A stretch of DNA of 59,080 nt from positions 1 through 59,080 of IMG/VR virus record IMGVR_UViG_3300031965_000032, one strand, 5' to 3'. The translations under genes were made by a program, and so were the position numbers. The notes beneath the pieces were generated by a model, which was not told the DNA's origin, did no database searches, and saw only the letters and a program-made list of their open reading frames with translations. The DNA is from a virus. Its lineage: Duplodnaviria > Caudoviricetes. This document shows, in pieces, positions 12,575-40,210 of the stretch. Every line of letters begins with the position of its first letter. The stretch's first letter is position 1.

Positions 12575-15500
12575 CTAACTGTCCGCGCTTGGCCGGCGCC
12601 CGGCGCTGCGCAGGCGCGACCGCGTGGCATAACGAGTTAGGCTCTGCGCCGTTTGTTCGTCCGTGAAGACGCGCCCGATCGTCTCCCCGACATCGGACTT
12701 CAGCACCAGTTCGCCGAGATTGCGAGTTCGCCCAGCAGCGACTCCGATCGGTTCAGCGACCGCGCCGCCAGCTGCATATCCAGGCACCATCAACGCGCCC
12801 ATCGACCGATTGAGGCCGTCGACAAACCCGCCCATGCTGAAACCATCCGCGTCGTGCAAAAACATGGCGATGGCACGGCGCAGGTCGCCGACGCGGCGCA
12901 GCGTCTCCAGGAACGCCAGCACGCCGGGCCGGCTCACCACGCGCGCCGGCTCGACATATTCGCCACCGTGAACGACACCGGCGACGCGGCTGCTCCCTAT
13001 ATTGCCGGTATAGCCGCCGCCGGCAAACCCGCCGCCGCCGCCGCCTCCGGCAGAGGCCGCCGCGGCCGCGGCTTCCCGCGCCAAAGCGATAACCTGCTGC
13101 AGGGCCGCAATGGCACGCGCCGCCGCCGCCTCGATCGCCGCCAGCATGCTCGATACAGCCGAGGTCACTTCCGCAGCGATCGTCGAGACGAAGATCGGGA
13201 TATGGCCGAGAGCTTGTGTGATCGCCGATGCGACGCCCGAAAACGCTTGCGCGATGGCCGCGCTGGCCGCTTGTGACGCGGCGACCATTTCCCGCAGCAG
13301 CGCGTTGAACACCGCGCCGGCATTCGCCGTGCCCGATTGGAACGATCCCGCGATGACAGTCCACATGCCAGTCGCGCCTTGCGCGATGGCGTCGAATGCG
13401 GCTTGAGCGGCGCTGCGCATCTGCTCCAGCGCCGCCGTGATTGCCGCTGGGTCGAGCCCGAGCAGATTGGTTCCGCCGATTCCCTCACCTACCCCACCAA
13501 TACCCTGAGCCTGCGCACCGCGGATACCAAATAACTCTTGACCGATCTGCTTGATGATATCTAGCAACCCCTGGAACTTTGACGGTTCCGCGATTTTGTC
13601 AAATTCCTGCCGTGCGCTTTCCGCCTGGCGCTGAAGCGCTCCCAGCAATTCCGGAGATTTGAACTGTTCCAGGGATTTAATGGCCCCATCGATGCCAACT
13701 TTGAGCCCACCGATGTCGAGTTTTTGGGTTAATTCATTGATGTCGATATTATCGACTGCCTGATCGATATCGTCAAACGAGCGAGCAATATGATCGAGTT
13801 CATCATCGATCTGTGCATTCTTCAGTGCGCCGAATTGTTTCTCAAGATTGCGTACCGCAGCTCCGACATCGATTATTCCCCTGCCTTGCGATCGCTCTTG
13901 CTCCAGCGTGATATCGCGCGTTGCCTTGCCGGCCTCACCGGCGCCTTTTGTGAGTTCTCGCAACTGATCGAGCAGGCTTTTTGCCCCGCCTTCGGCGGCC
14001 TTCAACGCGCCTGTCGCTTCGTCTCCCGTCTTCTCCATCTCTCCACTAAGACGCGCCCAGGCTTCGGTAAGTCCTGCCGCTGCGACGGCAGCGAGGATGA
14101 GAGCAACGGCAATCGGATTGCGCACAATCAAAGCGACGAACAGGCGCCCGAGATTGATGAGCGCAGGAATCAGCGCGGCAGTAAGCGCGATGGCAAGGCC
14201 GTAGGTGGCGGCGGTCATCAGCGTCATACCGGAGACTAAAGACGTGATCCTTACTCCGAACGGCTCCAGCGCAACGTTCACAAGGCCAGTGATGGCCGCA
14301 GCAAGAGCGTCGAAAACGACACGCATCTGATCAGGGAACAGCAGGATCAGTGCCAACGCGGCGCCGAGACCTCCGATCACGCCGGTCAACCGAGTGATGA
14401 TGGTGAACAGCCTTTCGACGATCGCCAGTGAAGCGGCTACGCTGACCAGGATGCCACCCAGTGCGCTGAAAGCCCTGGTAATGCTTCCGACAACTGCGAT
14501 TACGATCAGGGCATCACCGGTGAAAGCCGTCCCGAAAAGTCGATTGATGTGCGGTGCGATTGCGATCACAGCGCGGCGGAACAGAACGAATGCAAGAACG
14601 ACCTGCAGAATGATCCCAGGCATTGATTTGAGAAATGCAACGACATCCCTTACCCAATCAAACTGAATATCCTGATCGCGACCCGATAACGCCGCTAGGA
14701 AATCACTCCAAACGCCGCTCAAAAAGTCACCAACAGTCGTCGTCAACTCTCCGATCGTGATCTCGACTCCGGCGATGCTCTCACGGAAGGCGGCGATATC
14801 AGGCACCGACGATGTGAACACGCCAGCGAGCAGGATGGCCAGCGTATTGAAGCCGCCGATCAGCGTCGAAAGCACGGCGACGATGCCGAGATCTGCCGCC
14901 GTCAGCTTGGTGCCGAACGCCTCGTTGATGAACGTGGCTACCGCCTCGGCACCCTTGCTCAGTGCCGCAAACGCCGGCAGGATGATGCCGTTGATGACCT
15001 TGTCGACTGAGGTGCCGAGTTTGACGACATTGTCGCGGAAAGCGATCAGGCTCTTAGTCTCGACCTTGTCATCCTCGCCACGCAACAGGCGGAAGAAATC
15101 GGCGAGAACGGAGGTCGCCTTATCGCCAATGAAGGCTACCCATTCGCGGATCACGTCACGATTGGCGCGGATCAAACTGGTGAGCGCGCGGATTGCCGGC
15201 GTCAACGGTCCGAGGAACAGTGATCCGAGCGCGGTTCGTCCCTGCGCCGATGCGGCGGAGAATTCCCGCAGCGCAGAGGCGAATTCCTTGGCCTCCTTGA
15301 TATCCTCTTCCGAGAAGCCGAGCCCGAGCGACTTGAACCGTTCGCGTATGGCATCGATGCTGGTGACACCTTTTCGCAAGTCCTCAACAAGCAACTTGCC
15401 GACCGTATCGCCGAATGCCTTGGTGGCGAGTTCGGTTTGCTTTTCCTCGCTGCGCAGATTAACCAGGGCGGTGACGAATGCCTTCAGCCCGTCGGCAGAC

Positions 15501-16321
15501 TTGTCCGCCTTGAAGCCGGCCAGCGCGGCGTCCAACTCGTCGAAACGCCGCTTGCCGCCGGCGAAGGATTGAGCCAGCCCATCGATAGCGCGGGCCGCAC
15601 CCTTGGCGCCTTCCTCAGTATCGGGGAAGCGCTGGCCGAGCTTTTCCAGCGCGGCCTTGCCCTTTTTGAACGCTTCATCCGCCGCATCGCCGAAATGCGT
15701 GATGGCCTGGCGCGCCTCGCTTTCCTTGGCGCCCATCTGCCCAAGGATGAACACGAGCTCCTGATAGTCGTCGGTGTCGAAATCTCCTGCGGCGCGGCGC
15801 AAATCCTCCAACGACGATGCGGCATTCTTTGCGGCGGTGACGATGCCGGCAATGAGGCCGACCACACCGCCGACAGTGAGGCCGACAGCGATGAATTTGC
15901 GAATACCGGATGCGGCCTCGTTGATCGGCCCCGGCAGCTTGGCGACTTCGTTCGCGACACCCTTGACCCCATCGCGCACCCGATCGAACGAACTACCGAG
16001 CCGTTCGACTTGACTGTCGCGCCCGATCTCGGCGGCGGTTGTCGCCAGACCCGCAACCTCGCCCTTGGCCTCGGCGGACGCCGTGCCGGCACGCACGATC
16101 GATTTGGTGAAGCTGTCAACATTGGCAGCGGCCGGTGCAAACTCACGACCGGCACGTTGCGCCGCCGTGCCGATATCGCGGATCGGACCGCCCAGCGCCT
16201 GTGCAGCGCGCGCGATCTCATGGAACGCCTGCGCGCCGGCCTGCGCCAGCTGCGTCAATTGCGCCCGTATCTGCTGGTCGCCGTCGAACGCGATGCGTTG
16301 CGTGATGGTCTTGGTGGCCAT
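12575..16321 (-). CDS. Tape measure protein
   Basis: 1248 aa, Ala-rich and helical, central hydrophobic segments, GFAGGGYTG...GVVHGGEYV motif. Confidence 0.92.
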   Translation of the reverse strand: MATKTITQRIAFDGDQQIRAQLTQLAQAGAQAFHEIARAAQALGGPIRDIGTAAQRAGREFAPAAANVDSFTKSIVRAGTASAEAKGEVAGLATTAAEIGRDSQVERLGSSFDRVRDGVKGVANEVAKLPGPINEAASGIRKFIAVGLTVGGVVGLIAGIVTAAKNAASSLEDLRRAAGDFDTDDYQELVFILGQMGAKESEARQAITHFGDAADEAFKKGKAALEKLGQRFPDTEEGAKGAARAIDGLAQSFAGGKRRFDELDAALAGFKADKSADGLKAFVTALVNLRSEEKQTELATKAFGDTVGKLLVEDLRKGVTSIDAIRERFKSLGLGFSEEDIKEAKEFASALREFSAASAQGRTALGSLFLGPLTPAIRALTSLIRANRDVIREWVAFIGDKATSVLADFFRLLRGEDDKVETKSLIAFRDNVVKLGTSVDKVINGIILPAFAALSKGAEAVATFINEAFGTKLTAADLGIVAVLSTLIGGFNTLAILLAGVFTSSVPDIAAFRESIAGVEITIGELTTTVGDFLSGVWSDFLAALSGRDQDIQFDWVRDVVAFLKSMPGIILQVVLAFVLFRRAVIAIAPHINRLFGTAFTGDALIVIAVVGSITRAFSALGGILVSVAASLAIVERLFTIITRLTGVIGGLGAALALILLFPDQMRVVFDALAAAITGLVNVALEPFGVRITSLVSGMTLMTAATYGLAIALTAALIPALINLGRLFVALIVRNPIAVALILAAVAAAGLTEAWARLSGEMEKTGDEATGALKAAEGGAKSLLDQLRELTKGAGEAGKATRDITLEQERSQGRGIIDVGAAVRNLEKQFGALKNAQIDDELDHIARSFDDIDQAVDNIDINELTQKLDIGGLKVGIDGAIKSLEQFKSPELLGALQRQAESARQEFDKIAEPSKFQGLLDIIKQIGQELFGIRGAQAQGIGGVGEGIGGTNLLGLDPAAITAALEQMRSAAQAAFDAIAQGATGMWTVIAGSFQSGTANAGAVFNALLREMVAASQAASAAIAQAFSGVASAITQALGHIPIFVSTIAAEVTSAVSSMLAAIEAAAARAIAALQQVIALAREAAAAAASAGGGGGGGFAGGGYTGNIGSSRVAGVVHGGEYVEPARVVSRPGVLAFLETLRRVGDLRRAIAMFLHDADGFSMGGFVDGLNRSMGALMVPGYAAGGAVAEPIGVAAGRTRNLGELVLKSDVGETIGRVFTDEQTAQSLTRYATRSRLRSAGRRPSADS

Positions 16322-18340: not shown

Positions 18341-18787
18341 TTACAGTTCGTTTGGGTCGAGGATGTAGGTGAACGCGAATTTCAGCGCCACGCGTCCGAT
18401 CATGTCCCGGCCGTAGGCAAGATCGCTCACCAAGCCGAGATAGAAGATCGAACGCCGGTTGAACGTATAGCCGGCGAGCGTCGCATCCGAGAGCACCGCC
18501 TTAATGATTCGCGCGCGCAGCGTGTTGAGATCGGTCCCGACCGACTCCGGCTTGGCCGCCGTGTGGACGATCACCTGCGGCGTCATGACGATGCGGCGAT
18601 GCGTCGTGGTCGGTTTGCCATGCTGATCCTCGATCGGCGGTTCCGGTTCGTCGCCCTCGCGCACCGATACCGCCGGGAATGAAACCTCGTTCTGCGTCTC
18701 GACGTTGCGCTTGGCCGTCACGATGCCTTCGACCGATGCAACGACGACGAGCAGCCTCACCATGATCTGTTCGCGCACGTCGGTCAT
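18341..18787 (-). CDS. Tail terminator-like protein
   Basis: DVREQIMVRL...FPAVSVREGDE; directly upstream of the major tail gene. Confidence 0.7.
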   Translation of the reverse strand: MTDVREQIMVRLLVVVASVEGIVTAKRNVETQNEVSFPAVSVREGDEPEPPIEDQHGKPTTTHRRIVMTPQVIVHTAAKPESVGTDLNTLRARIIKAVLSDATLAGYTFNRRSIFYLGLVSDLAYGRDMIGRVALKFAFTYILDPNEL

Positions 18788-19140
18788 AGCTCGACCACCA
18801 CGAGATAGACTTCGCCCTTGCCGTTGGGCGGGCGGCCCGGCTCGCTATAGAACTCGACGCGGTAGTTTTTGCCGTCGCAGGCAAGTTCGCTGCCGGCGAG
18901 ATCGGCGCGGTTCAGGCCGAGCGTATCAAGTTCGCTTTCGCGCACCGCAAACGCCTGTTGCGACGACAGCACGGTCATCTGCCGCGATACCTCGCCAAGC
19001 CGGTCGCCGATTTCCACCGGCAACTGCTTCGGAATCACCGTCAACGGGTAATCGGCGCCATCCGACCCTGAGACGGTCAGCACAGCCGCCATGCCATAAA
19101 TCTCATAGAGGGTGTCGTAATGCAGTTCCCAGTCCGTCAT
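18784..19140 (-). CDS. Head-tail joining (gpFII-like) protein
   Basis: Start MTDWELHY; DGKNYRV beta-barrel pattern; gene position. Confidence 0.7.
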   Translation of the reverse strand: MTDWELHYDTLYEIYGMAAVLTVSGSDGADYPLTVIPKQLPVEIGDRLGEVSRQMTVLSSQQAFAVRESELDTLGLNRADLAGSELACDGKNYRVEFYSEPGRPPNGKGEVYLVVVEL

Positions 19141-19145
19141 TGCTA

Positions 19146-19796
19146 TCACGCCGCCAGCGGCGGCACCTCCCACAGGCGCGGCTTGCCGTGAAAACAGACG
19201 ACCGCGGCATCGGCCGGCACGCTGCCATCGCCTCGCTCGCGCGGATGCGCTTTGCGGCGCACGTGCACCTTGTACGAGACGACCTTGCCAGGAAAGCGGT
19301 CCTGCCAAAATACCGGCTGTATTGGCGTATGCGCGGCGATGAATCCTTGGTCGCCCCACGAGCCTTTGGTTTGCGGGCGTGGCATCCACTCCCGACTCTT
19401 GGCGACGAAGGCGCGATAGATCGGCGTCAGGTCGTGCCGCTCGACGTTCCAGGCCATCACGCCGGAGGCCGGCGGGTCGTGCCAGTAGAAGTCGCGCAGC
19501 ATGGTGAAGCGATCGGCGGCCGAAGCGGTGAAGTCCATCGACCGCAGGATTGACGTATCGAGATCGACATAGACCACCGGCCCATCGAACAATTCCGCCC
19601 TAAACAATTCCAGCTTTGCCCAATAGCTGGGCCAGCCATGGATCAGCGCAATCCGCTCGCACGGCACCTCGCAATCCGAGAGACAGACGAAGCGATGCGG
19701 CAGAGAGAGTTGTTTGGCAACATTGTCGCGCAGCGCGGCAACGTGCTCTGGACGGTATTCGCGGCCGGAGCGAAGGACACAGGCGACGGTCAGCAT
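19146..19796 (-). CDS. GT-A fold glycosyltransferase (GT8-like)
   Basis: VACVLRSG, FVCLSD, WAKLELF, YVDLD (DxD), GDQGFI and FHGKPRLW motifs. Confidence 0.8.
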   Translation of the reverse strand: MLTVACVLRSGREYRPEHVAALRDNVAKQLSLPHRFVCLSDCEVPCERIALIHGWPSYWAKLELFRAELFDGPVVYVDLDTSILRSMDFTASAADRFTMLRDFYWHDPPASGVMAWNVERHDLTPIYRAFVAKSREWMPRPQTKGSWGDQGFIAAHTPIQPVFWQDRFPGKVVSYKVHVRRKAHPRERGDGSVPADAAVVCFHGKPRLWEVPPLAA

Positions 19797-20269
19797 CCGA
19801 GATATTTCCGCGCTATCGCGATTCGCTCGGGATCGACATCGATGCCGACGTAATTCATGTTGAGCATCTTGCAGGCTTTGCCGATCGTGCCGCGCCCGCA
19901 GAAGCCGTCCCATACCGTGATGCCGGAACAGGCATAGGCCCGCAACAACCGCAGCGGCAGGTCGAGCGGCATCCAGCCGCGGCCTGGTGCGAACTCTTCC
20001 TCCACCAGATCACCGATATCGACATCCTTGATCGGCAATCCGGCAAGGTAAACCGTATTGTGCAAGCCTCGCCCCCAGCTGCCGAACCGCACAAGCGGAG
20101 CGCTGACCCACCGTTCGGCGTCCGCCTGCCGCCGCACCCGGCCTTCATACAGATTGACGATCGCAGGCACGCCGCGCACCGCCTCCGGCAACGGGGCATA
20201 GGGATGCGTGAACACCAGATCGGGACGCGGGCCGTTCCATGCGGTTGCATCGCCGCAGATCAGCGTCAC
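19790..20269 (-). CDS. Minimal N4/N6 DNA-methyltransferase-fold protein with altered catalytic motif
   Basis: LICGDA, DLVFTHPYA (in place of DPPY), VWDGFCGRGT SAM motif, YVGIDVDP; only 159 aa. Confidence 0.65.
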   Translation of the reverse strand: MTLICGDATAWNGPRPDLVFTHPYAPLPEAVRGVPAIVNLYEGRVRRQADAERWVSAPLVRFGSWGRGLHNTVYLAGLPIKDVDIGDLVEEEFAPGRGWMPLDLPLRLLRAYACSGITVWDGFCGRGTIGKACKMLNMNYVGIDVDPERIAIARKYLGC

Positions 20270-20508
20270 CGCACACGATCCCTGAGTTCATAAAAATTCG
20301 CATCAACAGAGTCTTGGCTTTGAAGCCGCGCTTTCTCCATCGCGATATAAACCGCCGAAATACACTCGTCGCGGACGTAATCGTCTATGTCCCAAGCGTA
20401 AAGCACGTCCAACCCTGCGGCAATCATCTCGGGCGTGACCTGAACCTTAGAAACATCGATTGATGCCACCGGTACACCTCTCGTGGAATAACAAAGCGTC
20501 ACCGCCAC
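20266..20508 (-). CDS. Small hypothetical protein
   Basis: VTPEMIAAG motif; overlaps both neighbours. Confidence 0.55.
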   Translation of the reverse strand: MAVTLCYSTRGVPVASIDVSKVQVTPEMIAAGLDVLYAWDIDDYVRDECISAVYIAMEKARLQSQDSVDANFYELRDRVR

Positions 20509-21497
20509 AGCGACGCCACTCCGCCGACGTGATCGCGCAACCGTTCCGCAGCGATCAGTTCGACAAAATTCGCCGGATATTTCTCGCCCTCAAAGCGGAA
20601 GGCGAAAGCATCGCGCGAGGCGATCCTGACCGGATAGAACCGCGCCCAGCGCGGCGCCCATTCGGTATCCAGCCCGCGACCGCGCTGCGTCACGTCCAGC
20701 ACCTCGGCCCGGTAATAGCCACGATCCCAATCGAACGCTGGCTGCACGATCAGATTGAGCGATCCGGGAAACGGCATGACGCCGATCGCATGCTCGATCT
20801 CAGCAATGCGGCGGCCTTCGGCGTATTCGAAGGCGGCCGTGGCCCCGTCGGCGCCGGCCTGAGATCTCGTCAGATACGCCTTCGGCGCGATCTCGCGGCG
20901 GCGGAAGCACCAGACCTCGCGCGTCGGCACATGCAGCGCCGGCCCGATATATTCTGCCTCGAAATAGCGATCGGCGGCGTTGAGGATATTGGCCTTGTTG
21001 TAGCGTGCATGATGCACCGCCGAGACATTGCGCTGCACGACACTGTCGGAAGTATCGACCGGGTTTTCCCAGAAAACCACGCCGCCCGGCGCGCATTGCC
21101 TCCATAGCCAAAACCAGATCGGCAGATGATCGCCGCCGGCGCATTCGAAAACGTGGTGGTAGACCGAAAACATCAGCACGATATCGAATGCGCCGAGCGC
21201 TGGCCATTGCCGGCCCAACTCGACCTGCCGGAACGTGCAGACGGACCCTTGCGGATGCTGCGCCGCATGAGCCCGATTCTCTGCAATCAGGTCAACGAAG
21301 CCGCGCCCCTTGACCAGCCGGTTGCGATCGATGCCGACAACCTCGCCGGCCCCCTGCCCGGCCGCGAGAAACGACCAATAACCGTGATCGCAGCCGATAT
21401 CGAGCACGCGCGTGCCGGAACACTCCGGTAACGGAATCGCCTCGCGCTTGATCGCCATGCGCTCAGGCGTCTGGTAATCAGGCAACGGCACGGTCAT
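20499..21497 (-). CDS. Class I SAM methyltransferase fused to a CTP-dependent riboflavin-kinase-like (DUF120) domain
   Basis: VLDIGCDHG...GIDR and FDIVLMFSVYHH; C-terminal GVMPFPGSLNL and FVELIAAERLRD match the archaeal RFK motifs PxPGTLN and ExIA...LR. Confidence 0.75.
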   Translation of the reverse strand: MTVPLPDYQTPERMAIKREAIPLPECSGTRVLDIGCDHGYWSFLAAGQGAGEVVGIDRNRLVKGRGFVDLIAENRAHAAQHPQGSVCTFRQVELGRQWPALGAFDIVLMFSVYHHVFECAGGDHLPIWFWLWRQCAPGGVVFWENPVDTSDSVVQRNVSAVHHARYNKANILNAADRYFEAEYIGPALHVPTREVWCFRRREIAPKAYLTRSQAGADGATAAFEYAEGRRIAEIEHAIGVMPFPGSLNLIVQPAFDWDRGYYRAEVLDVTQRGRGLDTEWAPRWARFYPVRIASRDAFAFRFEGEKYPANFVELIAAERLRDHVGGVASLWR

Positions 21498-22026
21498 AGG
21501 TCTCTATTCCAAGATCGAATTGCGGACCGTAGCGGTCGAGCAACGCCTGCCACTTGGGCTTGCCGTTGTCCTTCGTAGACACATGGTCATAACAGTGCAG
21601 GGCGCCGTGCTTCCTGGCGAGCTGCCCGGCATCGAGGACGATGCGATGCGGTGCCTCCGCCTTGCCGTAGCCGCCGGTGATCATGTGATCGTGCCAGTGA
21701 TGCACGATATGGCGGTTGACGGCCACATGATGCGGATGGCCGTATTCGCCGCAGGCATTGTGCGTCACGATCATGTCGTAGGCCGAAAGATCGAGCCAAG
21801 CGAGGTTGCCGGCGAAGGACTGGTCTTTCTCCGGCTCCGGCATCGGTATCAGTCGCCCCTGCGCGCCGAGCACGGCGCATGCATCGAAGAATTTCCATGC
21901 CCGCACCGGGTCGGCGCGCGGGATCGAACAGCAGATCACGGTCCAGTCGCCCGGATGCGCGATCAGCAGCCCGCCGAAAAACAGCGACTCGTCGTCGGGA
22001 TGGGCAACGACTAGCGCGCGTTTCAT
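21478..22026 (-). CDS. PIG-L/LmbE family N-deacetylase
   Basis: VAHPDDESLFFGG and THNACGEYGHPHH metal-binding motifs. Confidence 0.9.
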   Translation of the reverse strand: MKRALVVAHPDDESLFFGGLLIAHPGDWTVICCSIPRADPVRAWKFFDACAVLGAQGRLIPMPEPEKDQSFAGNLAWLDLSAYDMIVTHNACGEYGHPHHVAVNRHIVHHWHDHMITGGYGKAEAPHRIVLDAGQLARKHGALHCYDHVSTKDNGKPKWQALLDRYGPQFDLGIETYDRAVA

Positions 22027-22325
22027 CCGTTCACAGCATTCTTGCCAGTTCCAATGTTTTTCCATGATCCCACAATGAGCCGACACCACATTTCGGGATC
22101 ATCCCCATTTCGCTTTTCTACGATATATGTTGCCGCCGCATTTCTGTGCGTCACTTGAAATTTTTCCCCGACTTTGTGATCACCAAAATCATAAGTCCAA
22201 AAACCAGCGCGCCACGGCCACGGTCTCATTAAGACAGAGTCCTGATAGCTACCATCGACAATTGGATAATCAACATCAGGCCACACGTAATCCATTTTTA
22301 GATCAATGGCTGGCATGTCGAGCAT
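22023..22325 (-). CDS. Hypothetical protein (lower GC)
   Basis: GAGG SD before MLDMPAID; stop overlaps the PIG-L start. Confidence 0.5.
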   Translation of the reverse strand: MLDMPAIDLKMDYVWPDVDYPIVDGSYQDSVLMRPWPWRAGFWTYDFGDHKVGEKFQVTHRNAAATYIVEKRNGDDPEMWCRLIVGSWKNIGTGKNAVNG

Positions 22326-22359
22326 ACGATTATCCTCATGATCGGACAGACGTTCCTGC

Positions 22360-24249
22360 TCACCCCGGCACCATGATATGGTCATCCACCATAACGTCGG
22401 TAACGCGGTAGCCCAGCGAGGCGAGCAAGCCGACCGTCGCCTTCGGCGCCAGCCCATGCCGGCGCATGTGCGGTGCATGCTGTTCTACCACAATAACCGG
22501 ACGGCATCTACGGATCGTCTCAAGCGCGCCCTCGACCGCGAAATGCTCATAGCCTTCGCAGTCTAGCTTGATCAGGTCGACATCGTCGAGGGCAAAATCG
22601 TCGAGGCGGCGGACCGCGATATCGCCCGGCGTGCCCGCCAGCAGCGTCTCGCCAGTATTTCCCGGCGTCGACGCGCCTATTGTCAGACTTGCCGAATCCC
22701 GGCCGAGCGCACAGGGATGCAGCACCACATTTCCCGTGCCGTTGATATTACGGGAGAAACAATCCCGATGCAGCGCGACCGGCTCGAATGCCGTGACCTG
22801 GGCAAACCGGCGGGCAAAGTGCAGCGTCCACAGTCCGACATGCGCGCCGACATCGACGGCGTGGCGGAACATCTTGATCTTGCTTAGCGCCCGTTCGATC
22901 TTGGTGGCCTGATACGATGGCCGCAGCGACGTGCGTCTGTCGCTTTTCGTCATGTACTCGATCAGGTGCATCTCATCGACGGGAAGCCAGATGCCATTCC
23001 AGACCTTGATGCGCGACGGTGCCGCGGCGAGGAATGCGTCCATGGACAAAAACGGGAAGCAGCGGATGGCGGAATCGGGATTGAGATTGACCACGGCGGC
23101 TCCGGGCGGGAGCCGCATACTGGCGAACTCTTCAGCCCATGACTGATAATCTTTTTCACCGAAGCGGCACGTCCAATCGTATCCGGCATGCCAGTGGCCG
23201 GGGCCGTTGAGATCGTAGCCGATCAGAGCGATGTGCATGGCCCCCTGGCAGAGCACGTATTCCAGCGCACCGCGGCCGGAATTATATCCGGTCGTGCGCG
23301 GCACGGTAACCACATCAATCGGAGGTGCGCGGTATCCCGGCGGCATGGCCGCGACCACCGCTCCAGCGAAAGATTGCAACTCGGCGGCCCGGCGCCGCAA
23401 CCAGACGCCGTCGGCGGTGAACGCCACATCGGCCCACGGCATCGCGCGAAAGCTGTCGTTGACCGCGACCACAATACCGCGCCCGCGCAGCGCCGATAGA
23501 TCGACCGCGGCCGCGCTTGGGCCGCCGCCGATCAAAAACACCGGCTGATGCTGCCAGTTGCGAGGATTGCGCCGTGGTGCTGCCCGCTGCGGCAGGTTCT
23601 GGACGCGTCGCTGGCGCGACACTGCCTTTTTCATCGGTTGTTGTTCCTGGGCCAGAAATTCATCGAGCGTGGTCACCGGCCACAGGTCGGCGTAGGCAGT
23701 ACCTGGGCTCGCATTCCAAACAACGACGCCCATGCTCTTGAGCGGCTGCACCAGGCTGGCAAAGTCCTTGCGGTGCTCCGGCCACGAGTCCGCTTTGCGC
23801 GGCCACGGATGCGGCGCATGGTGGTGCGTGCGCCCGTCCGGAGTCGCCTTGCCGTCGCAACCCAGAAACACCAGCGTCCGCGCGCCACGCAACAGTGCCA
23901 CGTTGATCGCCGACGCAAACGAGGTGCGGCGGAACATCGCCTGCGTCGGGTCGGTACTCAGTCCCGATCCCGGCTTCTTGGTGAGCCGCAGCACTTTCGG
24001 CACGTTGAGCGGCGCCACGGTGACGATCTCGCCGGCAAAATCCTTCAGCAAGCCGGCGTGGCGGCCGTACCAGCGCGCATCGCCGAAAATCAGAACCGAC
24101 GCCCATGGCGCGACCTGATAGCTGGAATTGATCGCGATCACGCGCCGCCCGCGCAGGCGTTCCACGTTCTGAGTTGCGAGAGAGGGACCGCCGCCGAGGA
24201 TGAAAACGGTCTCGCCCGGCCAGTCGGCCGGGACACGCCAGAACGGCAT
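22360..24249 (-). CDS. Three-domain protein: two Maf_flag10/MptE-like (DUF115) domains plus FkbM-family methyltransferase
   Basis: VFILGGGPSL..VIAINSS..FLGCDG..HHH and VFLIGGGPSA..VVAVNDS..LIGYDL..HWH; C-terminal AVDVGAHVG, AFEP, LIKLDCEGYE, RCRPVIVVE. Confidence 0.8.
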   Translation of the reverse strand: MPFWRVPADWPGETVFILGGGPSLATQNVERLRGRRVIAINSSYQVAPWASVLIFGDARWYGRHAGLLKDFAGEIVTVAPLNVPKVLRLTKKPGSGLSTDPTQAMFRRTSFASAINVALLRGARTLVFLGCDGKATPDGRTHHHAPHPWPRKADSWPEHRKDFASLVQPLKSMGVVVWNASPGTAYADLWPVTTLDEFLAQEQQPMKKAVSRQRRVQNLPQRAAPRRNPRNWQHQPVFLIGGGPSAAAVDLSALRGRGIVVAVNDSFRAMPWADVAFTADGVWLRRRAAELQSFAGAVVAAMPPGYRAPPIDVVTVPRTTGYNSGRGALEYVLCQGAMHIALIGYDLNGPGHWHAGYDWTCRFGEKDYQSWAEEFASMRLPPGAAVVNLNPDSAIRCFPFLSMDAFLAAAPSRIKVWNGIWLPVDEMHLIEYMTKSDRRTSLRPSYQATKIERALSKIKMFRHAVDVGAHVGLWTLHFARRFAQVTAFEPVALHRDCFSRNINGTGNVVLHPCALGRDSASLTIGASTPGNTGETLLAGTPGDIAVRRLDDFALDDVDLIKLDCEGYEHFAVEGALETIRRCRPVIVVEQHAPHMRRHGLAPKATVGLLASLGYRVTDVMVDDHIMVPG

Positions 24250-24254
24250 GACCG

Positions 24255-24572
24255 CTACGCCGAAGCGGCTACTGCCGCGATCACGGCAACCTTGTCGCCC
24301 GGGTCGGGCTCGAATTCGTCGCTCTCGCCGGCGCCGAGGAACCATGACGCGGATGTTTCCGGATCGGGGTCCGGTCCAACCGCGACAATGCAATCGGCAT
24401 CGGCGCGGAGCTTCAGCACGTTTTCATCGGCCGCCACGATCAACGCGCCGACATTGACGGCCGATCCGTCGATGATGATTTCCTCACGACGCACCACGCC
24501 GGCTATCTTGAGCGGCAGGAACGTCTGCCGCCGCATGTAGGCCCGCCCGAACATGACTTGCAGTGTTGCCAT
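24255..24572 (-). CDS. Small virion-associated hypothetical protein
   Basis: LRADADCIVAVGPDP...LGAGE...PGDKVAVI beta-sandwich pattern; follows the capsid gene. Confidence 0.6.
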   Translation of the reverse strand: MATLQVMFGRAYMRRQTFLPLKIAGVVRREEIIIDGSAVNVGALIVAADENVLKLRADADCIVAVGPDPDPETSASWFLGAGESDEFEPDPGDKVAVIAAVAASA

Positions 24573-24632
24573 CGCGGCGCTCCATTTGGCAAGGAATCCG
24601 CGCAACGTCACAGTGACGATGCGCGGGACAGA

Positions 24633-25655
24633 TCAGGTACGGCGGGCGCGGTAGAGCGCCTGCGGCATGGTGCAGACGGGGAGCGGGTAGGCTTTGAGTT
24701 CCACGTCCGCCCATTCGTCACGCTTATCGTCGACGACGATCTCGGAATAGAACTTCCGCCCCATCTGGCCGAGATGCGAAAACTTTTCGCCCGGCGACAT
24801 GGTCCACTTGAAGATGCCGGCGCCGGCGGGGAAGAACTTCGCCTTGTCGGTGCCGACGGCGACCGTCGTGTTGTCGTCTGTGCCGCGATAGTTGGTCCAT
24901 TGGATGCCGCCGAAGTTGAACGTCTCCCAGGCAACCGGATCGCGCAGAGCAGCCGCCGCTTGGTAATTGAGATAGGTCGCCCGCACTTCGGGATGGGCGC
25001 GCAAATCGTCCCAGAAGTTGTCGCCGCAGAGCGCCATGATGCGCACGCCGCCGCCACCGATACCCTTGAGGTTGCGGATCATTGAACGGACAGCCGTCGT
25101 GCAACGCTTTTGGATTACGCCGGCCACCGGATTCGCAGCGTCGAGATCGAAGTCGACTTCCGCCGGAATCGTCTGGCCGAGCGCATCGGCCCAATCGATC
25201 CAGGTCGAACCGTCGGCGTCGGTGACCACTCCCTGCACCACACCGAGGCGCAGGTTCTCGACCGTGAGGTCCAAGTCGCGCATCAACAGCATCTGCCGCC
25301 GCGAGATTTCCTCGGCCAGAGACTCCAGGTCGATCTCGCTGCCGAACCGGCGAATGAATGCCAGCTCATGCGCCTCGATGCGGCTCTTCTTGGCCAGTCG
25401 GCGTGTGGCGAACGGCCGCGCATCGCGCGGGGTATCCGCCTTTTCCTCCATCGGCTGTCCGCGTTCGCTTGTCTGGATCAACGCGGCTTCGGTGCCGCGC
25501 GACTCGATGTAGACTTCCTTGGTCCGAACGGGCGTCGGTTCGAACAGCCCCGGCACCGAGCCGAGGAATCCCGGCACGAAGCCGAGCTTGTCGACGGCCG
25601 CAGTCAACGACGTGGCGCTGAACGCGTCCTGCTTGAATACGTCCATAACGATCAT
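24633..25655 (-). CDS. Major capsid protein (lambda gpE family)
   Basis: DVFKQDAFSATSLTAAV, FNFGGIQW, YPLPVCTMP; follows the decoration protein gene. Confidence 0.92.
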   Translation of the reverse strand: MIVMDVFKQDAFSATSLTAAVDKLGFVPGFLGSVPGLFEPTPVRTKEVYIESRGTEAALIQTSERGQPMEEKADTPRDARPFATRRLAKKSRIEAHELAFIRRFGSEIDLESLAEEISRRQMLLMRDLDLTVENLRLGVVQGVVTDADGSTWIDWADALGQTIPAEVDFDLDAANPVAGVIQKRCTTAVRSMIRNLKGIGGGGVRIMALCGDNFWDDLRAHPEVRATYLNYQAAAALRDPVAWETFNFGGIQWTNYRGTDDNTTVAVGTDKAKFFPAGAGIFKWTMSPGEKFSHLGQMGRKFYSEIVVDDKRDEWADVELKAYPLPVCTMPQALYRARRT

Positions 25656-25707: not shown

Positions 25708-26088
25708 TCAGCGCGGAGCGATGAACAGTCGATCCTTCAGATCGGCCACGATCGCGGCCTTCTCGCCGCCGTCCGAACTCTCGGCCGGGTAGGTGATCAA
25801 ATCGTCTTTCACGGTGGCGGGACCCCGTGCCAGATAGACCTGGCCTTCGATATCGCCGGCACTGGCGTCAACAGCCTGATGCAGGATTCCGGCGACGGCA
25901 GCCGACAGGCCTCCATCGGAAACCAGCACGCCGGCATGTGCGACGAGCTTGCCGGTGTCCCACTGCAAGACCTCGCCTGCCTTGAGATTTTGGCCGGACT
26001 TTACCGTCGCTGTCTCGAACGACAGTTGCCGATCAACAACCGAGCCGAGATATGCCCCGGCGTGGGTCTGTTCCGTCAGTGTGGTCAT
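25708..26088 (-). CDS. Head decoration protein (lambda gpD family)
   Basis: TVKSGQNLKAGEVL...AVAGIL...VDASAGD. Confidence 0.85.
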   Translation of the reverse strand: MTTLTEQTHAGAYLGSVVDRQLSFETATVKSGQNLKAGEVLQWDTGKLVAHAGVLVSDGGLSAAVAGILHQAVDASAGDIEGQVYLARGPATVKDDLITYPAESSDGGEKAAIVADLKDRLFIAPR

Positions 26089-37768: not shown

Positions 37769-38151
37769 GCGGCACCATCCCGCCCGGCGATCGGCGCGGC
37801 CACAAGCCTGTAGCCGTAGTCGTGCCCGCTGATCGAATCGATCCTCAGCCCAACGGCGCGCAACTTCTTGCGCAGCCACCACATCTGCGTGCGGACATGG
37901 TTCCAATTCCCCGGCCCCCCGGTCGGATCGCCGGAAAAGATGCGCGCATACAACGCTTCCGGCGTCAGCCTCCGCCCGGACTGGCGCGCCTTCCACAGTT
38001 CGTCGAAGATTTGCGCTTCGCCCTGCGTCAGCTCGACCACATGGCCGCAGCCGACCAGCAGCCGCGCATCGAGTATCCATGCGTGCGCCAAGCCGGCGAT
38101 CGGCCCGCCACAGCACGGGCAGTGGTCGCTGATCAACAGACGGCGCGTCAT
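37765..38151 (-). CDS. OmpR/PhoB-type winged-helix DNA-binding protein
   Basis: VELTQGEAQIF...VRTQMWWLRKKL...GYRL; N-terminal CPCCG. Confidence 0.8.
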   Translation of the reverse strand: MTRRLLISDHCPCCGGPIAGLAHAWILDARLLVGCGHVVELTQGEAQIFDELWKARQSGRRLTPEALYARIFSGDPTGGPGNWNHVRTQMWWLRKKLRAVGLRIDSISGHDYGYRLVAAPIAGRDGAA

Positions 38152-39650: not shown

Positions 39651-40210
39651 TCTTGCACCGCAGGCTTGGGGCGCTCGATGAACAGGTCGATTTGAGGGCG
39701 CCAACTTTCCCAAGCGCGCCCAACGGCTCCGCTACCGGGAAAGAGATCATGAAATTCATCGCCAGGATTTGCCCCAACGACCTCAAAGGCCCAATGACAT
39801 ACGTCTTCCGGCTTCGCCCCGGTGAAACCGCGCCGCATCGTCATCGGCGCTTCGATCCAATCCCGCTGTACGAACGCGCCGGAATAATTCTCAGCCATGC
39901 GGCGCATCGGCTTGAAGATGATCGGCTCCCACGCATAGGCGGGGCGCACGCCCTTTTTGAATGCTGCAAAAGATTTCACCCACGCACCCCAACGCGCGCC
40001 AGCCGGCACCAATGGGGCAATGATGGGTATTGCAACGGAACTGGTGTGAAGCACCCACCCATCAAAATCGCGCTCAAGTCTTGCAATCAGCTCGGCGTGG
40101 TCAACCTCCCCGGCATAGTCCGGGTGATCTTTGTACAGGTGCGCGTTGCCCGGATAGGGCGGGTCCGCATAACCGAGGCGCAGCGCAAGCTGTTCGGTGT
40201 GGATGGTCAT
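39647..40210 (-). CDS. Small DNA methyltransferase
   Basis: YADPPYPG and DLFPGSG motifs. Confidence 0.8.
   Translation of the reverse strand: MTIHTEQLALRLGYADPPYPGNAHLYKDHPDYAGEVDHAELIARLERDFDGWVLHTSSVAIPIIAPLVPAGARWGAWVKSFAAFKKGVRPAYAWEPIIFKPMRRMAENYSGAFVQRDWIEAPMTMRRGFTGAKPEDVCHWAFEVVGANPGDEFHDLFPGSGAVGRAWESWRPQIDLFIERPKPAVQE

What the first reader, a model, noticed from the sequence alone, without database searches (positions are those of the whole stretch)
19146..24249. Seven-gene glycan synthesis and decoration cassette inside the virion morphogenesis operon
Seen in sequence: seven co-oriented, mostly overlapping ORFs lie between the capsid/accessory genes and the head-tail joining gene. 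They encode a double Maf/MptE-like + FkbM fusion, a small ORF, a PIG-L deacetylase, a methyltransferase-kinase-like fusion, a small ORF, a degenerate MTase and a GT8-like glycosyltransferase. Established: these families transfer, deacetylate and methylate sugars in cell-surface glycan pathways, and virion glycosylation by phage glycosyltransferases is known in mycobacteriophages. Inference: because the cassette is co-expressed with structural genes rather than in a lysogenic-conversion or replication module, it may build a methylated, deacetylated, capped glycan on the virion of an alphaproteobacterial phage. Single such genes occur in other phage head regions, but I know of no description of this full combination.
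Basis: partly seen in the sequence, partly recalled or inferred. Interest (0 to 1): 0.9.

Follow-up and report, generated by a model that had tools for sequence, protein, structure and literature searches.

The report
Capsid-adjacent glycan-tailoring cassette in a phage
Right after its capsid gene, this temperate phage carries five sugar-adding and sugar-modifying enzymes whose relatives sit beside capsid genes in unrelated phages and beside flagellin genes in two bacteria, so the phage probably coats its particle with a modified glycan, although no experiment shows this yet.

Summary
The observation mostly holds. Between the lambda-E-type major capsid gene and an FII-like head-tail gene, five co-oriented enzyme genes are real and conserved. 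They encode a 2x Maf/GT42-like + FkbM methyltransferase fusion, a PIG-L deacetylase with intact metal motifs, a methyltransferase fused to a CTP-riboflavin-kinase-like fold, a small non-canonical N6/N4-type methyltransferase, and a GT8-fold glycosyltransferase homologous to phage P1 PmgQ. The two small ORFs have no support.

New evidence:
- The enzymes are joined by gene fusions, so they form one pathway.
- 11 of 18 loci with the methyltransferase-kinase-like gene have it within 2.1 kb of a major capsid gene, across five capsid families.
- In two bacterial genomes, a fused GT2-PIG-L-methyltransferase-kinase-like protein lies beside a giant flagellin gene.
- One close relative of this phage has no cassette at this slot. 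Another has a different sugar cassette there, with a UDP-sulfoquinovose synthase homologue.
- The record shows none of the three gene families sought for known DNA-glycosylation routes.

Best reading (0.55): a flagellin-type protein glycosylation and glycan-tailoring kit turned onto the virion. The acceptor, the sugars and the kinase activity are inferred. This is a new variant of a known kind.

The parts
24633..25655 (-). Major capsid protein, lambda gpE type. This is the upstream flank and a candidate acceptor.
   Evidence: Pfam Phage_cap_E 2.1e-67; phrog_29 3.1e-35.
25708..26088 (-). Head decoration protein, gpD-like. Also a candidate acceptor.
   Evidence: phrog_49 5.2e-11.
24255..24611 (-). 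118-aa ORF between the capsid gene and the cassette. Function unknown.
   Evidence: No family in Pfam, PHROGs or NCBIfam. Third-position GC 0.77, so probably coding.
22360..24249 (-). g1, 629 aa: two Maf/GT42-like domains (about residues 10-200 and 230-410) followed by an FkbM methyltransferase (about 450-629).
   Evidence: phrog_4603 in 2 stretches, 8.8e-53; phrog_8156; PF05050 5.3e-16; TIGR01444 76 bits. The AF2 model has pLDDT 68 overall, with the first two domains well predicted. VIA-align gives Maf 5mu5 Z 14.8, rmsd 3.3, 170 aligned; Cst-I 2p56 Z 11.6; MptE HPPK 8sd5 Z 11.4. Foldseek gives 5mu5 at 5.5e-5 and CstII at probability 1.0.
22023..22325 (-). g2, a 100-aa ORF in an AT-rich stretch. 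Not supported as a gene.
   Evidence: No family hits. Third-position GC 0.44. Local GC is 0.44-0.49 against 0.6-0.7 around it. No tblastn match in L021 or in any other g4-based locus. The Atlas scores are 0.76 or below.
21478..22026 (-). g3, 182 aa: PIG-L/LmbE-type de-N-acetylase. A longer GTG start at 22089 is possible.
   Evidence: PF02585 at 27.0 bits, cut-off 28.2. H9, D11, D12, E13, H97, H99 and H100 are invariant in 11 of 11 sequences.
20499..21497 (-). g4, 332 aa: class I SAM methyltransferase (residues about 18-146) fused to a CTP-dependent-riboflavin-kinase-like domain (about 205-332).
   Evidence: PF13489 6e-9 and PF01982 30.7 bits. The profile of the family hits riboflavin kinase MJ0056 (2p3m) at 7.2e-4 and WbdD at 9e-5. 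The Atlas structure search gives TM 0.70-0.73 to RFKase clusters. There are 325 homologues at E <= 1e-3.
20266..20508 (-). g5, an 80-aa ORF. Not supported as a gene.
   Evidence: No family hits. Third-position GC 0.56. No tblastn match in L021 or in any other g4-based locus.
19790..20269 (-). g6, 159 aa: a small N6/N4-methyltransferase-like protein, conserved but with a non-canonical catalytic motif.
   Evidence: Only the C-terminal part of PF01555 matches, 9.2e-11. In 6 homologues, 30 columns are invariant. The D-G-F-x-G-R motif I is kept. The site of the usual (D/N/S)-P-P-(Y/F) motif reads T/S-H/N-P/L-Y.
19146..19796 (-). g7, 216 aa: GT-A glycosyltransferase with a GT8 fold, homologous to P1 PmgQ and P7 HdmD.
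   Evidence: phrog_1962 4.9e-54. It is 36% identical to P1 pmgQ. The AF2 model has pLDDT 94.9. Foldseek gives glycogenin at 4.6e-8, LgtC, and the Skp1 alpha-GalT 6mw5 at TMq 0.65. D78-L79-D80 is invariant in 28 sequences.
18784..19140 (-). FII-like head-tail attachment gene, the downstream flank. Its ATG lies 5 nt after the g7 stop.
   Evidence: Phage_attach, weak, 0.0088. Junction sequence. It is followed by the major tail protein, phrog_807.

Best explanation
The cassette is a late-expressed protein-glycosylation and glycan-tailoring module that acts on a virion surface protein. The likely acceptor is the capsid or its decoration protein, with a tail protein less likely.

Proposed course, all inferred. 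During late infection, in the cytoplasm, the GT8-fold enzyme (g7) transfers a hexose or N-acetylhexosamine from a host UDP-sugar. The PIG-L enzyme (g3) removes an N-acetyl group. The methyltransferases (g4, g6 and the FkbM domain of g1) methylate the freed amine or hydroxyls. The two Maf/GT42-like domains of g1 add one or two sugars from a host CMP-activated donor, either a nonulosonic acid or Kdo, and the fused FkbM domain methylates them. The riboflavin-kinase-like domain of g4 either phosphorylates the glycan with CTP or binds a cytidine nucleotide.

Shown by computation: the folds and motifs, the linkage of the enzymes into one pathway, the position in the operon, and the recurrent association with capsid genes.

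Inferred: the acceptor, the donors, the order of steps, and any kinase activity.
For: 1. One pathway.
- g3 lies next to g4 in 10 of 16 viral loci and 4 of 5 genome loci.
- Fusions join g4+g7 (L007:9944-11557; P0309, P0314), g4+FkbM (P0310, P0316, P0349) and g3+g4 (P0317), and add an extra N-terminal part to g3+g4 (P0328, P0333).
- Further fusions join g7+FkbM (L013), Maf+FkbM (g1; P0242) and GT8-like+MptE-like (BFVD, 700 and 685 aa).

2. Capsid association.
- 18 places hold a two-domain g4 homologue: the window, L006-L016, L021 and L022-L026.
- In 11 of them the module lies within 2.1 kb of a major capsid gene. The capsid genes belong to five PHROG families: 29, 10, 1328, 9953 and 4523.
- One of these is a Mesorhizobium prophage.
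- A rough binomial takes 5 of 9 lineages adjacent, with a chance of 0.084 each. It gives 4e-4, or 0.02 if the chance is 0.2. Both the lineage count and the chance are my own estimates.

3. Protein glycosylation in cells.
- In L025 and L026 a single 775-792 aa protein carries GT2, PIG-L, methyltransferase and RFK-like parts. It lies divergently next to an 865-867 aa flagellin gene, beside TPR proteins and, in L026, FliF.
- Its GT2 part is 45% identical (3e-56) to the phage GT that precedes g3 and g4 beside the capsid gene in L012.
- Domain 2 of g1 is closest to the flagellin glycosyltransferase Maf (Z 14.8).

4. A sugar slot.
- The close relative L033 (capsid 71% identical) carries a different cassette at the same slot. 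It has a Maf-like gene, two g7-like genes, a radical-SAM enzyme (AprD4, 8.8e-18) and a UDP-sulfoquinovose synthase homologue (SQD1, 7.7e-101).
- L034 (capsid 71%, portal 73% identical) has no cassette there.

5. Late, in-line expression.
- Junctions are tight and promoter-like or terminator-like sites are not in excess.
- In P1 the homologues pmgO and pmgQ lie in an operon annotated with a late promoter and C1 operators.

6. Precedent.
- Mycobacteriophages glycosylate capsid and tail tube with their own glycosyltransferases (passages in PMC11600133 and PMC12363180).
- The PBCV-1 protein A064R (638 aa) combines two GT domains and a methyltransferase and acts on the capsid glycan (passages in PMC7826918).
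Against: - There is no direct evidence of any glycan on any virion of this group. No cultured phage in the 50,697-record collection carries g4, and only 5 jumbo phages carry a distant g3.
- The capsid proteins of cassette-bearing W and L033 and of cassette-free L034 are collinear. No Ser/Thr-rich insertion or tail marks an acceptor.
- 7 of the 18 places are not capsid-adjacent. In L007 the module follows a primosomal protein and a DNA methyltransferase and precedes a neck/minor tail gene. In L010 it follows a replication initiator. In L009 it precedes terL, and in L015 it precedes tail genes. L024 holds only the module. L025 and L026 are flagellin loci.
- The flagellin context means the family's cellular target is probably flagellin, so host flagellin is a live alternative. 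That context rests on only two genomes of one family.
- The slot varies among relatives, which a generic cargo site would also show.
- P1 pmgO and pmgQ are non-essential (table in PMC10695390). I found no report of a glycan on P1 particles.
- No donor-synthesis genes (CTP_transf_3, NeuB) lie in the record, so the donors are guesses.
Confidence: 0.55

Rival explanations
1. The cassette remodels a host surface glycoconjugate rather than the virion. Candidates are the flagellin glycan, LPS or capsule. The effect could be to block superinfection by flagellum- or glycan-binding phages, or to change host behaviour.
For: - The bacterial fused homologue sits beside flagellin, TPR proteins and FliF.
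- g1 resembles the flagellin glycosyltransferase Maf.
- The phage is temperate: an integrase lies at 962-2065.
- PHROGs files the g7 family under 'moron, auxiliary metabolic gene and host takeover'.
Against: - The cassette lies in line inside the late head-tail operon, with overlapping or near-abutting genes and no excess of promoter-like sites. It would therefore be silent in a lysogen unless an unseen promoter exists.
- It recurs next to capsid genes in five capsid families, which a conversion gene has no reason to do.
- The P1 homologues are annotated as under late-promoter and C1-repressor control.
Confidence: 0.15
2. The cassette glycosylates and tailors the phage DNA, a base hypermodification made just before packaging, to escape restriction.
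For: - Phage glycosyltransferases with GT-A folds related to LPS enzymes hypermodify 5hmC. An expanded search found such clusters in neighbourhoods with phage structural genes (abstract and passages of bioRxiv 10.1101/2023.12.21.572611).
- g6 belongs to a DNA-methyltransferase superfamily.
- In L007 and L010 the module lies next to replication or DNA-methyltransferase genes.
Against: - The record shows no Tet_JBP dioxygenase, no thymidylate-synthase homologue and no C5 DNA methyltransferase. These make the known reactive bases.
- The phage's two full-length DNA methyltransferases lie in the replication arm, 14-20 kb away.
- g6 lacks the canonical catalytic motif.
- The cellular homologue is flagellin-linked.
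- Caveat: the record is estimated at only about 75% complete.
Confidence: 0.08
3. The cassette is cargo at a permissive insertion slot and acts on some other substrate, such as a small molecule, a cell-wall precursor or a host protein. Its nearness to capsid genes would then reflect where insertions are tolerated.
For: - The slot is empty in L034 and holds a different cassette in L033.
- The P1 homologues are dispensable.
- The g4 methyltransferase domain is generic: its PDB hits include CmoB, WbdD and PRMTs.
Against: - The same enzymes sit at capsid-adjacent slots in head modules of five different capsid families. They also sit beside flagellin in cells. Both neighbours are polymeric surface proteins.
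- Every component with an assignable fold is a glycan enzyme or a methyltransferase.
Confidence: 0.12

Closest known systems
Mycobacteriophage virion glycosylation (Che8, Corndog, Myrna; Freeman et al. 2023, Cell Host Microbe). I did not read the paper itself, which is not held. I know it through passages in PMC11600133 and PMC12363180.
   Same: Phage-encoded glycosyltransferases together with an O-methyltransferase modify capsid and tail tube proteins. The genes are accessory.
   Different: Here the enzyme set is different: Maf/GT42-like domains, a GT8-fold PmgQ family member, PIG-L, and a methyltransferase-RFK-like fusion. The likely hosts are Proteobacteria. No glycan has been shown. Homology to Che8 gp110 or Corndog gp38 was not tested.
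Chlorovirus PBCV-1 A064R (passages in PMC7826918).
   Same: A single protein of about 630 aa with two glycosyltransferase domains followed by a methyltransferase that methylates the terminal sugar of the capsid glycan. g1 has the same layout in 629 aa.
   Different: In A064R the two glycosyltransferase domains are rhamnosyltransferases. In g1 they are Maf/GT42-like. The resemblance is in architecture, not shown homology.
Maf flagellin glycosyltransferases and flagellin glycosylation islands. Structure 5mu5. That they use CMP-nonulosonic-acid donors is recalled, not from a call.
   Same: Domain 2 of g1 matches the Maf central domain best (Z 14.8). The PIG-L/methyltransferase/RFK-like unit is flagellin-adjacent in two bacterial genomes.
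   Different: g1 lacks the rest of the 632-aa Maf protein, has the domain twice, and carries an FkbM domain. Pfam MptE-like scores 16.9 bits, below the 34.6 cut-off. The genomic neighbour here is a capsid gene.
Phage P1 PmgO and PmgQ ('putative morphogenetic function'); P7 HdmD.
   Same: g7 is 36% identical to PmgQ over 97% of its length. PmgO matches both Maf-like domains of g1. The two genes share one operon annotated as late and C1-controlled. A similar pairing occurs in Citrobacter phage phiNP and in Xanthomonas jumbo phage Xoo-sp13.
   Different: P1 has no PIG-L gene and no methyltransferase-RFK-like gene, and the pair is not next to its capsid gene. Their function is unknown and they are non-essential.
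E. coli O9a WbdD, a kinase plus methyltransferase that caps the O-antigen chain. Its function is recalled, not from a call.
   Same: The g4 methyltransferase domain hits WbdD structures weakly (E 0.007-0.01 with the single sequence, 9e-5 with the profile). Both pair a methyltransferase with a putative phosphotransfer domain.
   Different: The second domain of g4 is a CTP-riboflavin-kinase-like barrel, not a protein-kinase-like fold. Capping is only a hypothesis.
Phage DNA sugar-hypermodification clusters (bioRxiv 10.1101/2023.12.21.572611, abstract and passages; NAR 2026, PMC13326640, abstract).
   Same: Phage glycosyltransferases related to LPS enzymes, sometimes found near structural genes.
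   Different: Those clusters depend on a C5 methyltransferase plus a TET-like dioxygenase, or on a thymidylate-synthase homologue. None was found in this record.

Membership tests
GT8 glycosyltransferases (g7) | GT-A fold most similar to glycogenin, LgtC and other GT8 members | tested here: met
   The AF2 model has pLDDT 94.9. Foldseek against the PDB puts glycogenin (4.6e-8), LgtC and the Skp1 alpha-GalT on top.
GT8 glycosyltransferases (g7) | DxD metal and nucleotide-sugar motif | tested here: met
   D78-L79-D80 is invariant in 28 aligned homologues. That this triplet is the functional DxD motif is inferred from its position.
GT8 glycosyltransferases (g7) | Sequence membership (Pfam Glyco_transf_8) | tested here: not met
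   No Pfam family at E <= 0.1. The best PDB sequence hit has E 0.052. g7 is therefore GT8-like by fold, not a recognised member by sequence.
Maf / GT42 / MptE-like superfamily (g1, domains 1 and 2) | Shared Rossmann-like fold of Maf, Cst-I/II and MptE | tested here: met
   VIA-align gives 5mu5 Z 14.8, 2p56 Z 11.6 and 8sd5 Z 11.4 for residues about 222-411. Domain 1 scores more weakly, Z 8.2-8.6. Foldseek gives 5mu5 at 5.5e-5.
Maf / GT42 / MptE-like superfamily (g1) | Pfam PF01973 above its gathering score | tested here: not met
   16.9 bits against a cut-off of 34.6; 9.2 bits in the six-frame search.
Maf / GT42 / MptE-like superfamily (g1) | Transfer from a CMP-activated nonulosonic acid to Ser/Thr or to a glycan | not testable with these tools
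   This needs an enzyme assay. The record shows no CMP-sugar synthetase and no NeuB.
FkbM methyltransferases (g1 C-terminus) | PF05050 and TIGR01444 above their cut-offs | tested here: met
   59.7 bits against 22.7; 76 bits against 37.7.
PIG-L / LmbE deacetylases (g3) | Metal-binding and catalytic motifs: A-H-P-D-D-E near the N-terminus and H-x-x-H later. The family motif is recalled, not from a call. | tested here: met
   H9, D11, D12, E13, H97, H99 and H100 are invariant in 11 of 11 sequences.
PIG-L / LmbE deacetylases (g3) | Pfam PF02585 above its gathering score | tested here: inconclusive
   27.0 bits against 28.2, E 6.9e-6.
CTP-dependent riboflavin kinase fold (g4 C-terminus) | PF01982 above its cut-off, and the same fold | tested here: met
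   30.7 bits against 25. The family profile hits 2p3m at 7.2e-4. The Atlas structure search gives TM 0.70-0.73.
CTP-dependent riboflavin kinase fold (g4 C-terminus) | Riboflavin kinase activity | not testable with these tools
   It falls far below NCBIfam's equivalog cut-off, 16 against 279 bits. The context argues against a role in flavin synthesis.
N6/N4 DNA methyltransferases (g6) | Catalytic motif IV, (D/N/S)-P-P-(Y/F). The motif is recalled, not from a call. | tested here: not met
   The site reads T/S-H/N-P/L-Y in 6 of 6 homologues. Motif I is kept. Only positions 166-220 of the 221-position Pfam profile match.
Phage virion glycosylation systems (mycobacteriophage type) | A glycan on capsid or tail proteins that depends on phage glycosyltransferases | not testable with these tools
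   No cultured carrier was found.
Phage DNA sugar-hypermodification clusters | A co-encoded C5 methyltransferase plus 5mYOX/TET, or a thymidylate-synthase homologue | tested here: not met
   0 matches for PF00145, PF12851 and PF00303 in the record. The record is estimated at about 75% complete.

The most novel reading that the evidence does not exclude
Tailed phages of Proteobacteria have repeatedly captured the bacterial flagellin-glycosylation toolkit and placed it beside their capsid genes. The toolkit comprises Maf-type transferases and a GT/PIG-L/methyltransferase/RFK-like tailoring unit.

In this reading the particle wears a methylated, de-N-acetylated glycan that may carry Kdo or a nonulosonic acid, or sulfoquinovose in the sister lineage L033. 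This would be a swappable 'glyco-serotype' of the capsid.

The reading would also give P1 PmgO and PmgQ their first function. It would make the methyltransferase-RFK-like fusion a new CTP-using sugar kinase or cytidine-nucleotide-binding tailoring enzyme.
Probability: 0.25. Interest if true: 0.85.

Novelty: new variant of a known kind. Interest (0 to 1): 0.66.

Why it matters
As far as I could find, virion glycosylation by phage enzymes is established only for mycobacteriophages (the key paper is not held). If the reading holds, three things follow.
- It extends the phenomenon to phages of Gram-negative bacteria with a different enzyme set, and shows that the set is widespread. The g4 family alone has 325 homologues at E <= 1e-3 in the 90% clusters and 72 clusters at E <= 1e-30 in the 50% library.
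- It links capsid and flagellin glycosylation in evolution.
- It offers an easy entry point in a laboratory phage, since P1 pmgO and pmgQ are homologues of unknown function.

Glycan coats could affect particle stability, adhesion, recognition by hosts and immune systems, and the design of therapeutic phages.

Tried and rejected
Steps that led nowhere:
- blastn (distant mode) of the whole cassette against the phage collection found no match.
- The search for related loci with g1 alone found none.
- tblastn of g4 against the phage collection found none.
- g3 found only 5 jumbo phages at about 30% identity. g6 found only weak DNA-methylase hits.
- Rfam on 18500-25000 gave one chance-level hit below its threshold. 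There are no tRNAs.
- The promoter and terminator scan was not above shuffled sequence.
- The Atlas gave nothing above chance for g2.
- Taxon scans with the g4 profile found only the starting genomes: 1 of 350 scored (351 searched) in the class of G001, 1 of 401 in the order of G003, and 2 of 151 in the family of G001. The flagellin context could therefore not be widened.
- The capsid alignment showed no acceptor signature.
- L014:4943-5686 is not related to the GT2 part of the bacterial fusion.
- NCBIfam named only the FkbM domain.

Literature:
- Searches for pmgQ/pmgO, virion or capsid glycosylation in phages, motility accessory factor with phage capsid, and DUF115 with phage found no description of this cassette.
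- The library lacks most subscription journals. Freeman et al. 2023 is not held.
The supplementary tables of the Pyle et al. preprint might list related contigs.

Considered and rejected:
- Riboflavin metabolism for g4, because of its context and the low equivalog score.
- g6 as a decayed pseudogene, because it has 30 invariant columns across 6 homologues.

Not run:
- Complex prediction. An enzyme-substrate pair is a poor case for it.
- The look-up of sequencing runs and read laying.

My gene calls in the loci are crude. They rank ORFs by third-position GC or by length. Some ORF boundaries, and the minus-strand calls inside the modules, are unreliable.

Full report
WHAT IS THERE

The window is a complete IMG/VR virus record of 59,080 b, linear, with completeness estimated at about 75%. 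It is a temperate tailed phage. It has an integrase (962-2065), a primase/helicase, two full-length DNA methyltransferases and a RecE-like exonuclease.

Its long late operon runs on the minus strand in this order:
- small and large terminase subunits
- portal
- ClpP-like protease
- gpD-like decoration protein
- gpE-type major capsid protein (24633-25655; Phage_cap_E, 2.1e-67)
- a 118-aa ORF
- the cassette
- an FII-like gene
- tail genes, including a 1248-aa ORF (12575-16321) that I take to be the tape measure from its size and position

The cassette is packed in line. Junctions are overlaps of 4-20 nt or gaps of 5-34 nt. Promoter-like and terminator-like sites are no more frequent than in shuffled sequence: 5 against 3.4 and 19 against 13.5.

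THE GENES

Five genes are solid.
- **g1** (629 aa) has two Maf/GT42-like domains and an FkbM methyltransferase. In the AF2 model the two N-terminal domains are well predicted and the FkbM part is not; overall pLDDT is 68. An all-against-all structural search ranks the Magnetospirillum flagellin glycosyltransferase Maf first (Z 14.8, rmsd 3.3, 170 residues). Campylobacter sialyltransferase Cst-I (Z 11.6) and the archaeal MptE kinase (Z 11.4) follow. Foldseek agrees.
- **g3** is a PIG-L-type deacetylase. It scores just under Pfam's threshold (27.0 against 28.2 bits), but its histidine and aspartate motifs are invariant in 11 of 11 homologues.
- **g4** joins a class I methyltransferase to a domain with the fold of CTP-dependent riboflavin kinase. 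The evidence is Pfam at 30.7 against 25 bits, a profile hit to MJ0056 at 7.2e-4, and Atlas structure TM of 0.70-0.73.
- **g6** is a 159-aa relative of N6/N4 DNA methyltransferases. It keeps the SAM motif but has T/S-H/N-P/L-Y where the catalytic motif should be. It is conserved, with 30 invariant columns in 6 sequences, so it is non-canonical rather than decayed.
- **g7** has no Pfam family. It folds with pLDDT 94.9 into a GT-A domain closest to the GT8 enzymes glycogenin, LgtC and the Skp1 galactosyltransferase, with an invariant D-L-D.

The two small ORFs, g2 and g5, have no family. Their third-position GC is odd: 0.44 and 0.56, against 0.75-0.77 for the five enzyme genes with g7 taken from its shorter start. 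tblastn finds neither in any of the 21 g4-based loci, and in the syntenic relative L021 only 78 and 33 nt lie at their places. I treat them as unsupported.

ONE PATHWAY

The parts travel together and are often fused.
- g3 lies next to g4 in 10 of 16 viral loci and 4 of 5 genome loci found with a g4 profile.
- Natural fusions join g4+g7, g4+FkbM and g3+g4, and add an extra N-terminal part to g3+g4 (L007).
- Further fusions join g7+FkbM (L013), Maf-like+FkbM (g1 and P0242) and GT8-like+MptE-like (BFVD).
- The exact three-domain g1 has no full-length match. The best hit covers 63% of it.
- Most or all of the enzyme set recurs in L021, in a Mesorhizobium prophage (L022), in a Pseudolabrys MAG (L023) and in L024.
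- Named homologues point to Hyphomicrobiales hosts: Mesorhizobium, Bradyrhizobium, Alsobacter, Pseudolabrys and Aurantimonas.

WHERE THE MODULE SITS ELSEWHERE

Eighteen places hold a two-domain g4 homologue: the window, L006-L016, L021 and L022-L026.

In 11 of them the module lies within 2.1 kb of a major capsid gene.
- The window and L021 have a gpE-type capsid gene.
- L006, L022 and L023 have an HK97-like capsid gene (phrog_10).
- L012 has phrog_1328, and L008 and L016 join it by clustering.
- L013 and L014 have phrog_9953.
- L011 has a capsid-protease fusion (phrog_4523).

The other seven places are these.
- L009: beside terL, with a capsid gene 4.2 kb away.
- L015: before tail genes, with the upstream side cut off.
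- L007: after a primosomal protein and a DNA methyltransferase, and before a neck/minor tail gene.
- L010: after a replication initiator, at a contig end.
- L024: a 3.6-kb contig holding only the module.
- L025 and L026: bacterial flagellar loci.

A rough binomial takes 5 of 9 independent lineages as adjacent. It gives 4e-4 at a chance of 0.084 per lineage and 0.02 at 0.2. The lineage count and the chance are my estimates, not measured values.

Four further loci (L017-L020) carry only the methyltransferase half, or the two halves in swapped order. In L020 this lies between terL and portal with a g7-like gene and a radical-SAM gene. In L017 a sugar-type aminotransferase lies beside it.

THE BACTERIAL COUNTERPART

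In L025 and L026 a single protein of 775-792 aa carries GT2, PIG-L, methyltransferase and riboflavin-kinase-like parts.
- It lies divergently beside an 865-867-aa flagellin gene.
- TPR-repeat proteins follow it, and FliF is nearby in L026.
- Its GT2 part is 45% identical (3e-56) to the stand-alone phage glycosyltransferase that precedes the methyltransferase, g3 and g4 next to the capsid gene in L012.

The phage unit is therefore the split form of a flagellin-locus enzyme. This context rests on two genomes of one family, and wider scans found no more.

A VARIABLE SUGAR SLOT

Among relatives found with the window's capsid protein, two stand out.
- L034 (capsid 71%, portal 73% identical) goes from the capsid gene straight into small head-tail ORFs and has no cassette gene.
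- L033 (capsid 71% identical) has a different 6.6-kb cassette at the same place. It holds a Maf-like gene, two g7-like genes, three unassigned ORFs, a radical-SAM enzyme like AprD4 (8.8e-18) and a close homologue of UDP-sulfoquinovose synthase SQD1 (7.7e-101).

The capsid proteins of the three phages are collinear, with no extra Ser/Thr-rich segment.

LINK TO KNOWN PHAGES

- g7 is 36% identical to P1 PmgQ (P7 HdmD).
- P1 PmgO matches both Maf-like domains of g1.
- Both genes lie in one operon annotated with a late promoter and C1 operators.
- Both are non-essential in a CRISPRi screen (table passage of PMC10695390).
- Citrobacter phage phiNP and Xanthomonas jumbo phage Xoo-sp13 have similar pairings.
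- No cultured phage in the collection has g4.

WEIGHING THE READINGS

Three observations fit a module that glycosylates a polymeric surface protein and tailors the glycan, here turned onto the virion.
- Every assignable part is a glycan enzyme or a methyltransferase.
- The parts form one pathway.
- The pathway sits beside capsid genes in phages and beside flagellin in cells.

Precedents exist in mycobacteriophages and in chlorovirus A064R, which has the same two-transferase-plus-methyltransferase layout as g1.

The DNA-modification rival is real in principle. However, the record shows no match to the three gene families I sought for the known routes, and two ordinary DNA methyltransferases sit elsewhere.

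The host-flagellin or surface rival gains but fits poorly with late, in-line placement next to capsid genes.

The record shows no matches to the two donor-synthesis families I searched, CTP_transf_3 and NeuB, so donors would be host nucleotide sugars. A Maf-like homologue also occurs in P1. From recall, laboratory E. coli K-12 has CMP-Kdo as its only CMP-sugar. This makes CMP-Kdo a candidate donor, and it is inference only.

VERDICT

- My confidence that this is a glycan-building and glycan-tailoring pathway is about 0.85.
- My confidence that its target is a virion protein is about 0.55.
- It is a new variant of a known kind.

Noticed in passing
window 22023-22360: A stretch of about 300 nt with GC 0.44-0.49 lies inside a 0.6-0.7 GC operon. 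It holds the unsupported ORF g2 and a weak minus-strand promoter-like site at 22321-22294 (9 of 12 matches). It could be a recent insertion or a regulatory spacer.
   Followed up: partly
L033:10066-16669: A sister phage (capsid 71% identical) carries at the same slot a cassette with a close homologue of UDP-sulfoquinovose synthase SQD1 (7.7e-101) and an AprD4-like radical-SAM enzyme. This suggests a sulfosugar in a phage context.
   Followed up: partly
L025:987-10233 and L026:1-9986: Giant flagellins (865-867 aa) lie next to a four-domain GT2-PIG-L-methyltransferase-RFK-like protein and TPR-repeat proteins. This looks like an undescribed flagellin glycosylation locus. The C-terminal halves of the TPR proteins are unassigned.
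   Followed up: partly
L017-L020 (e.g. L020:3411-12924): A large accessory block lies between terL and portal in L020. It holds a g7-like glycosyltransferase, a radical-SAM gene and a 506-aa protein that contains the g4 methyltransferase half. L017 also has a sugar-type aminotransferase next to a g4 split into swapped halves.
   Followed up: partly
L003:6900-7382 (Citrobacter phage phiNP): A tblastn match to the Maf-like domain of g1 (31% identity, 1e-11) falls in a stretch with no annotated gene, just upstream of the annotated 'alpha-2,3-sialyltransferase'. It may be a second, unannotated or broken copy.
   Followed up: no
L025 and L024 (record titles): The contig titled as a Streptomyces MAG carries flagellar genes, and its genome falls in the same family as the Betaproteobacteria MAG. 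The contig titled Saccharibacteria has 63.5% GC and holds only the phage-type module. Both labels look like binning errors.
   Followed up: no
window 38148-39713 and 44352-45335: Two full-length DNA methyltransferases (phrog_67 and phrog_111) lie in the replication arm, apart from the small non-canonical g6 in the cassette.
   Followed up: no
L022:6647-7144, L023:5850-6350, L006:8417-9112: A small protein with weak matches to phrog_28483 follows the HK97-type capsid gene and precedes the module in three loci. It could be a decoration protein or the acceptor.
   Followed up: no
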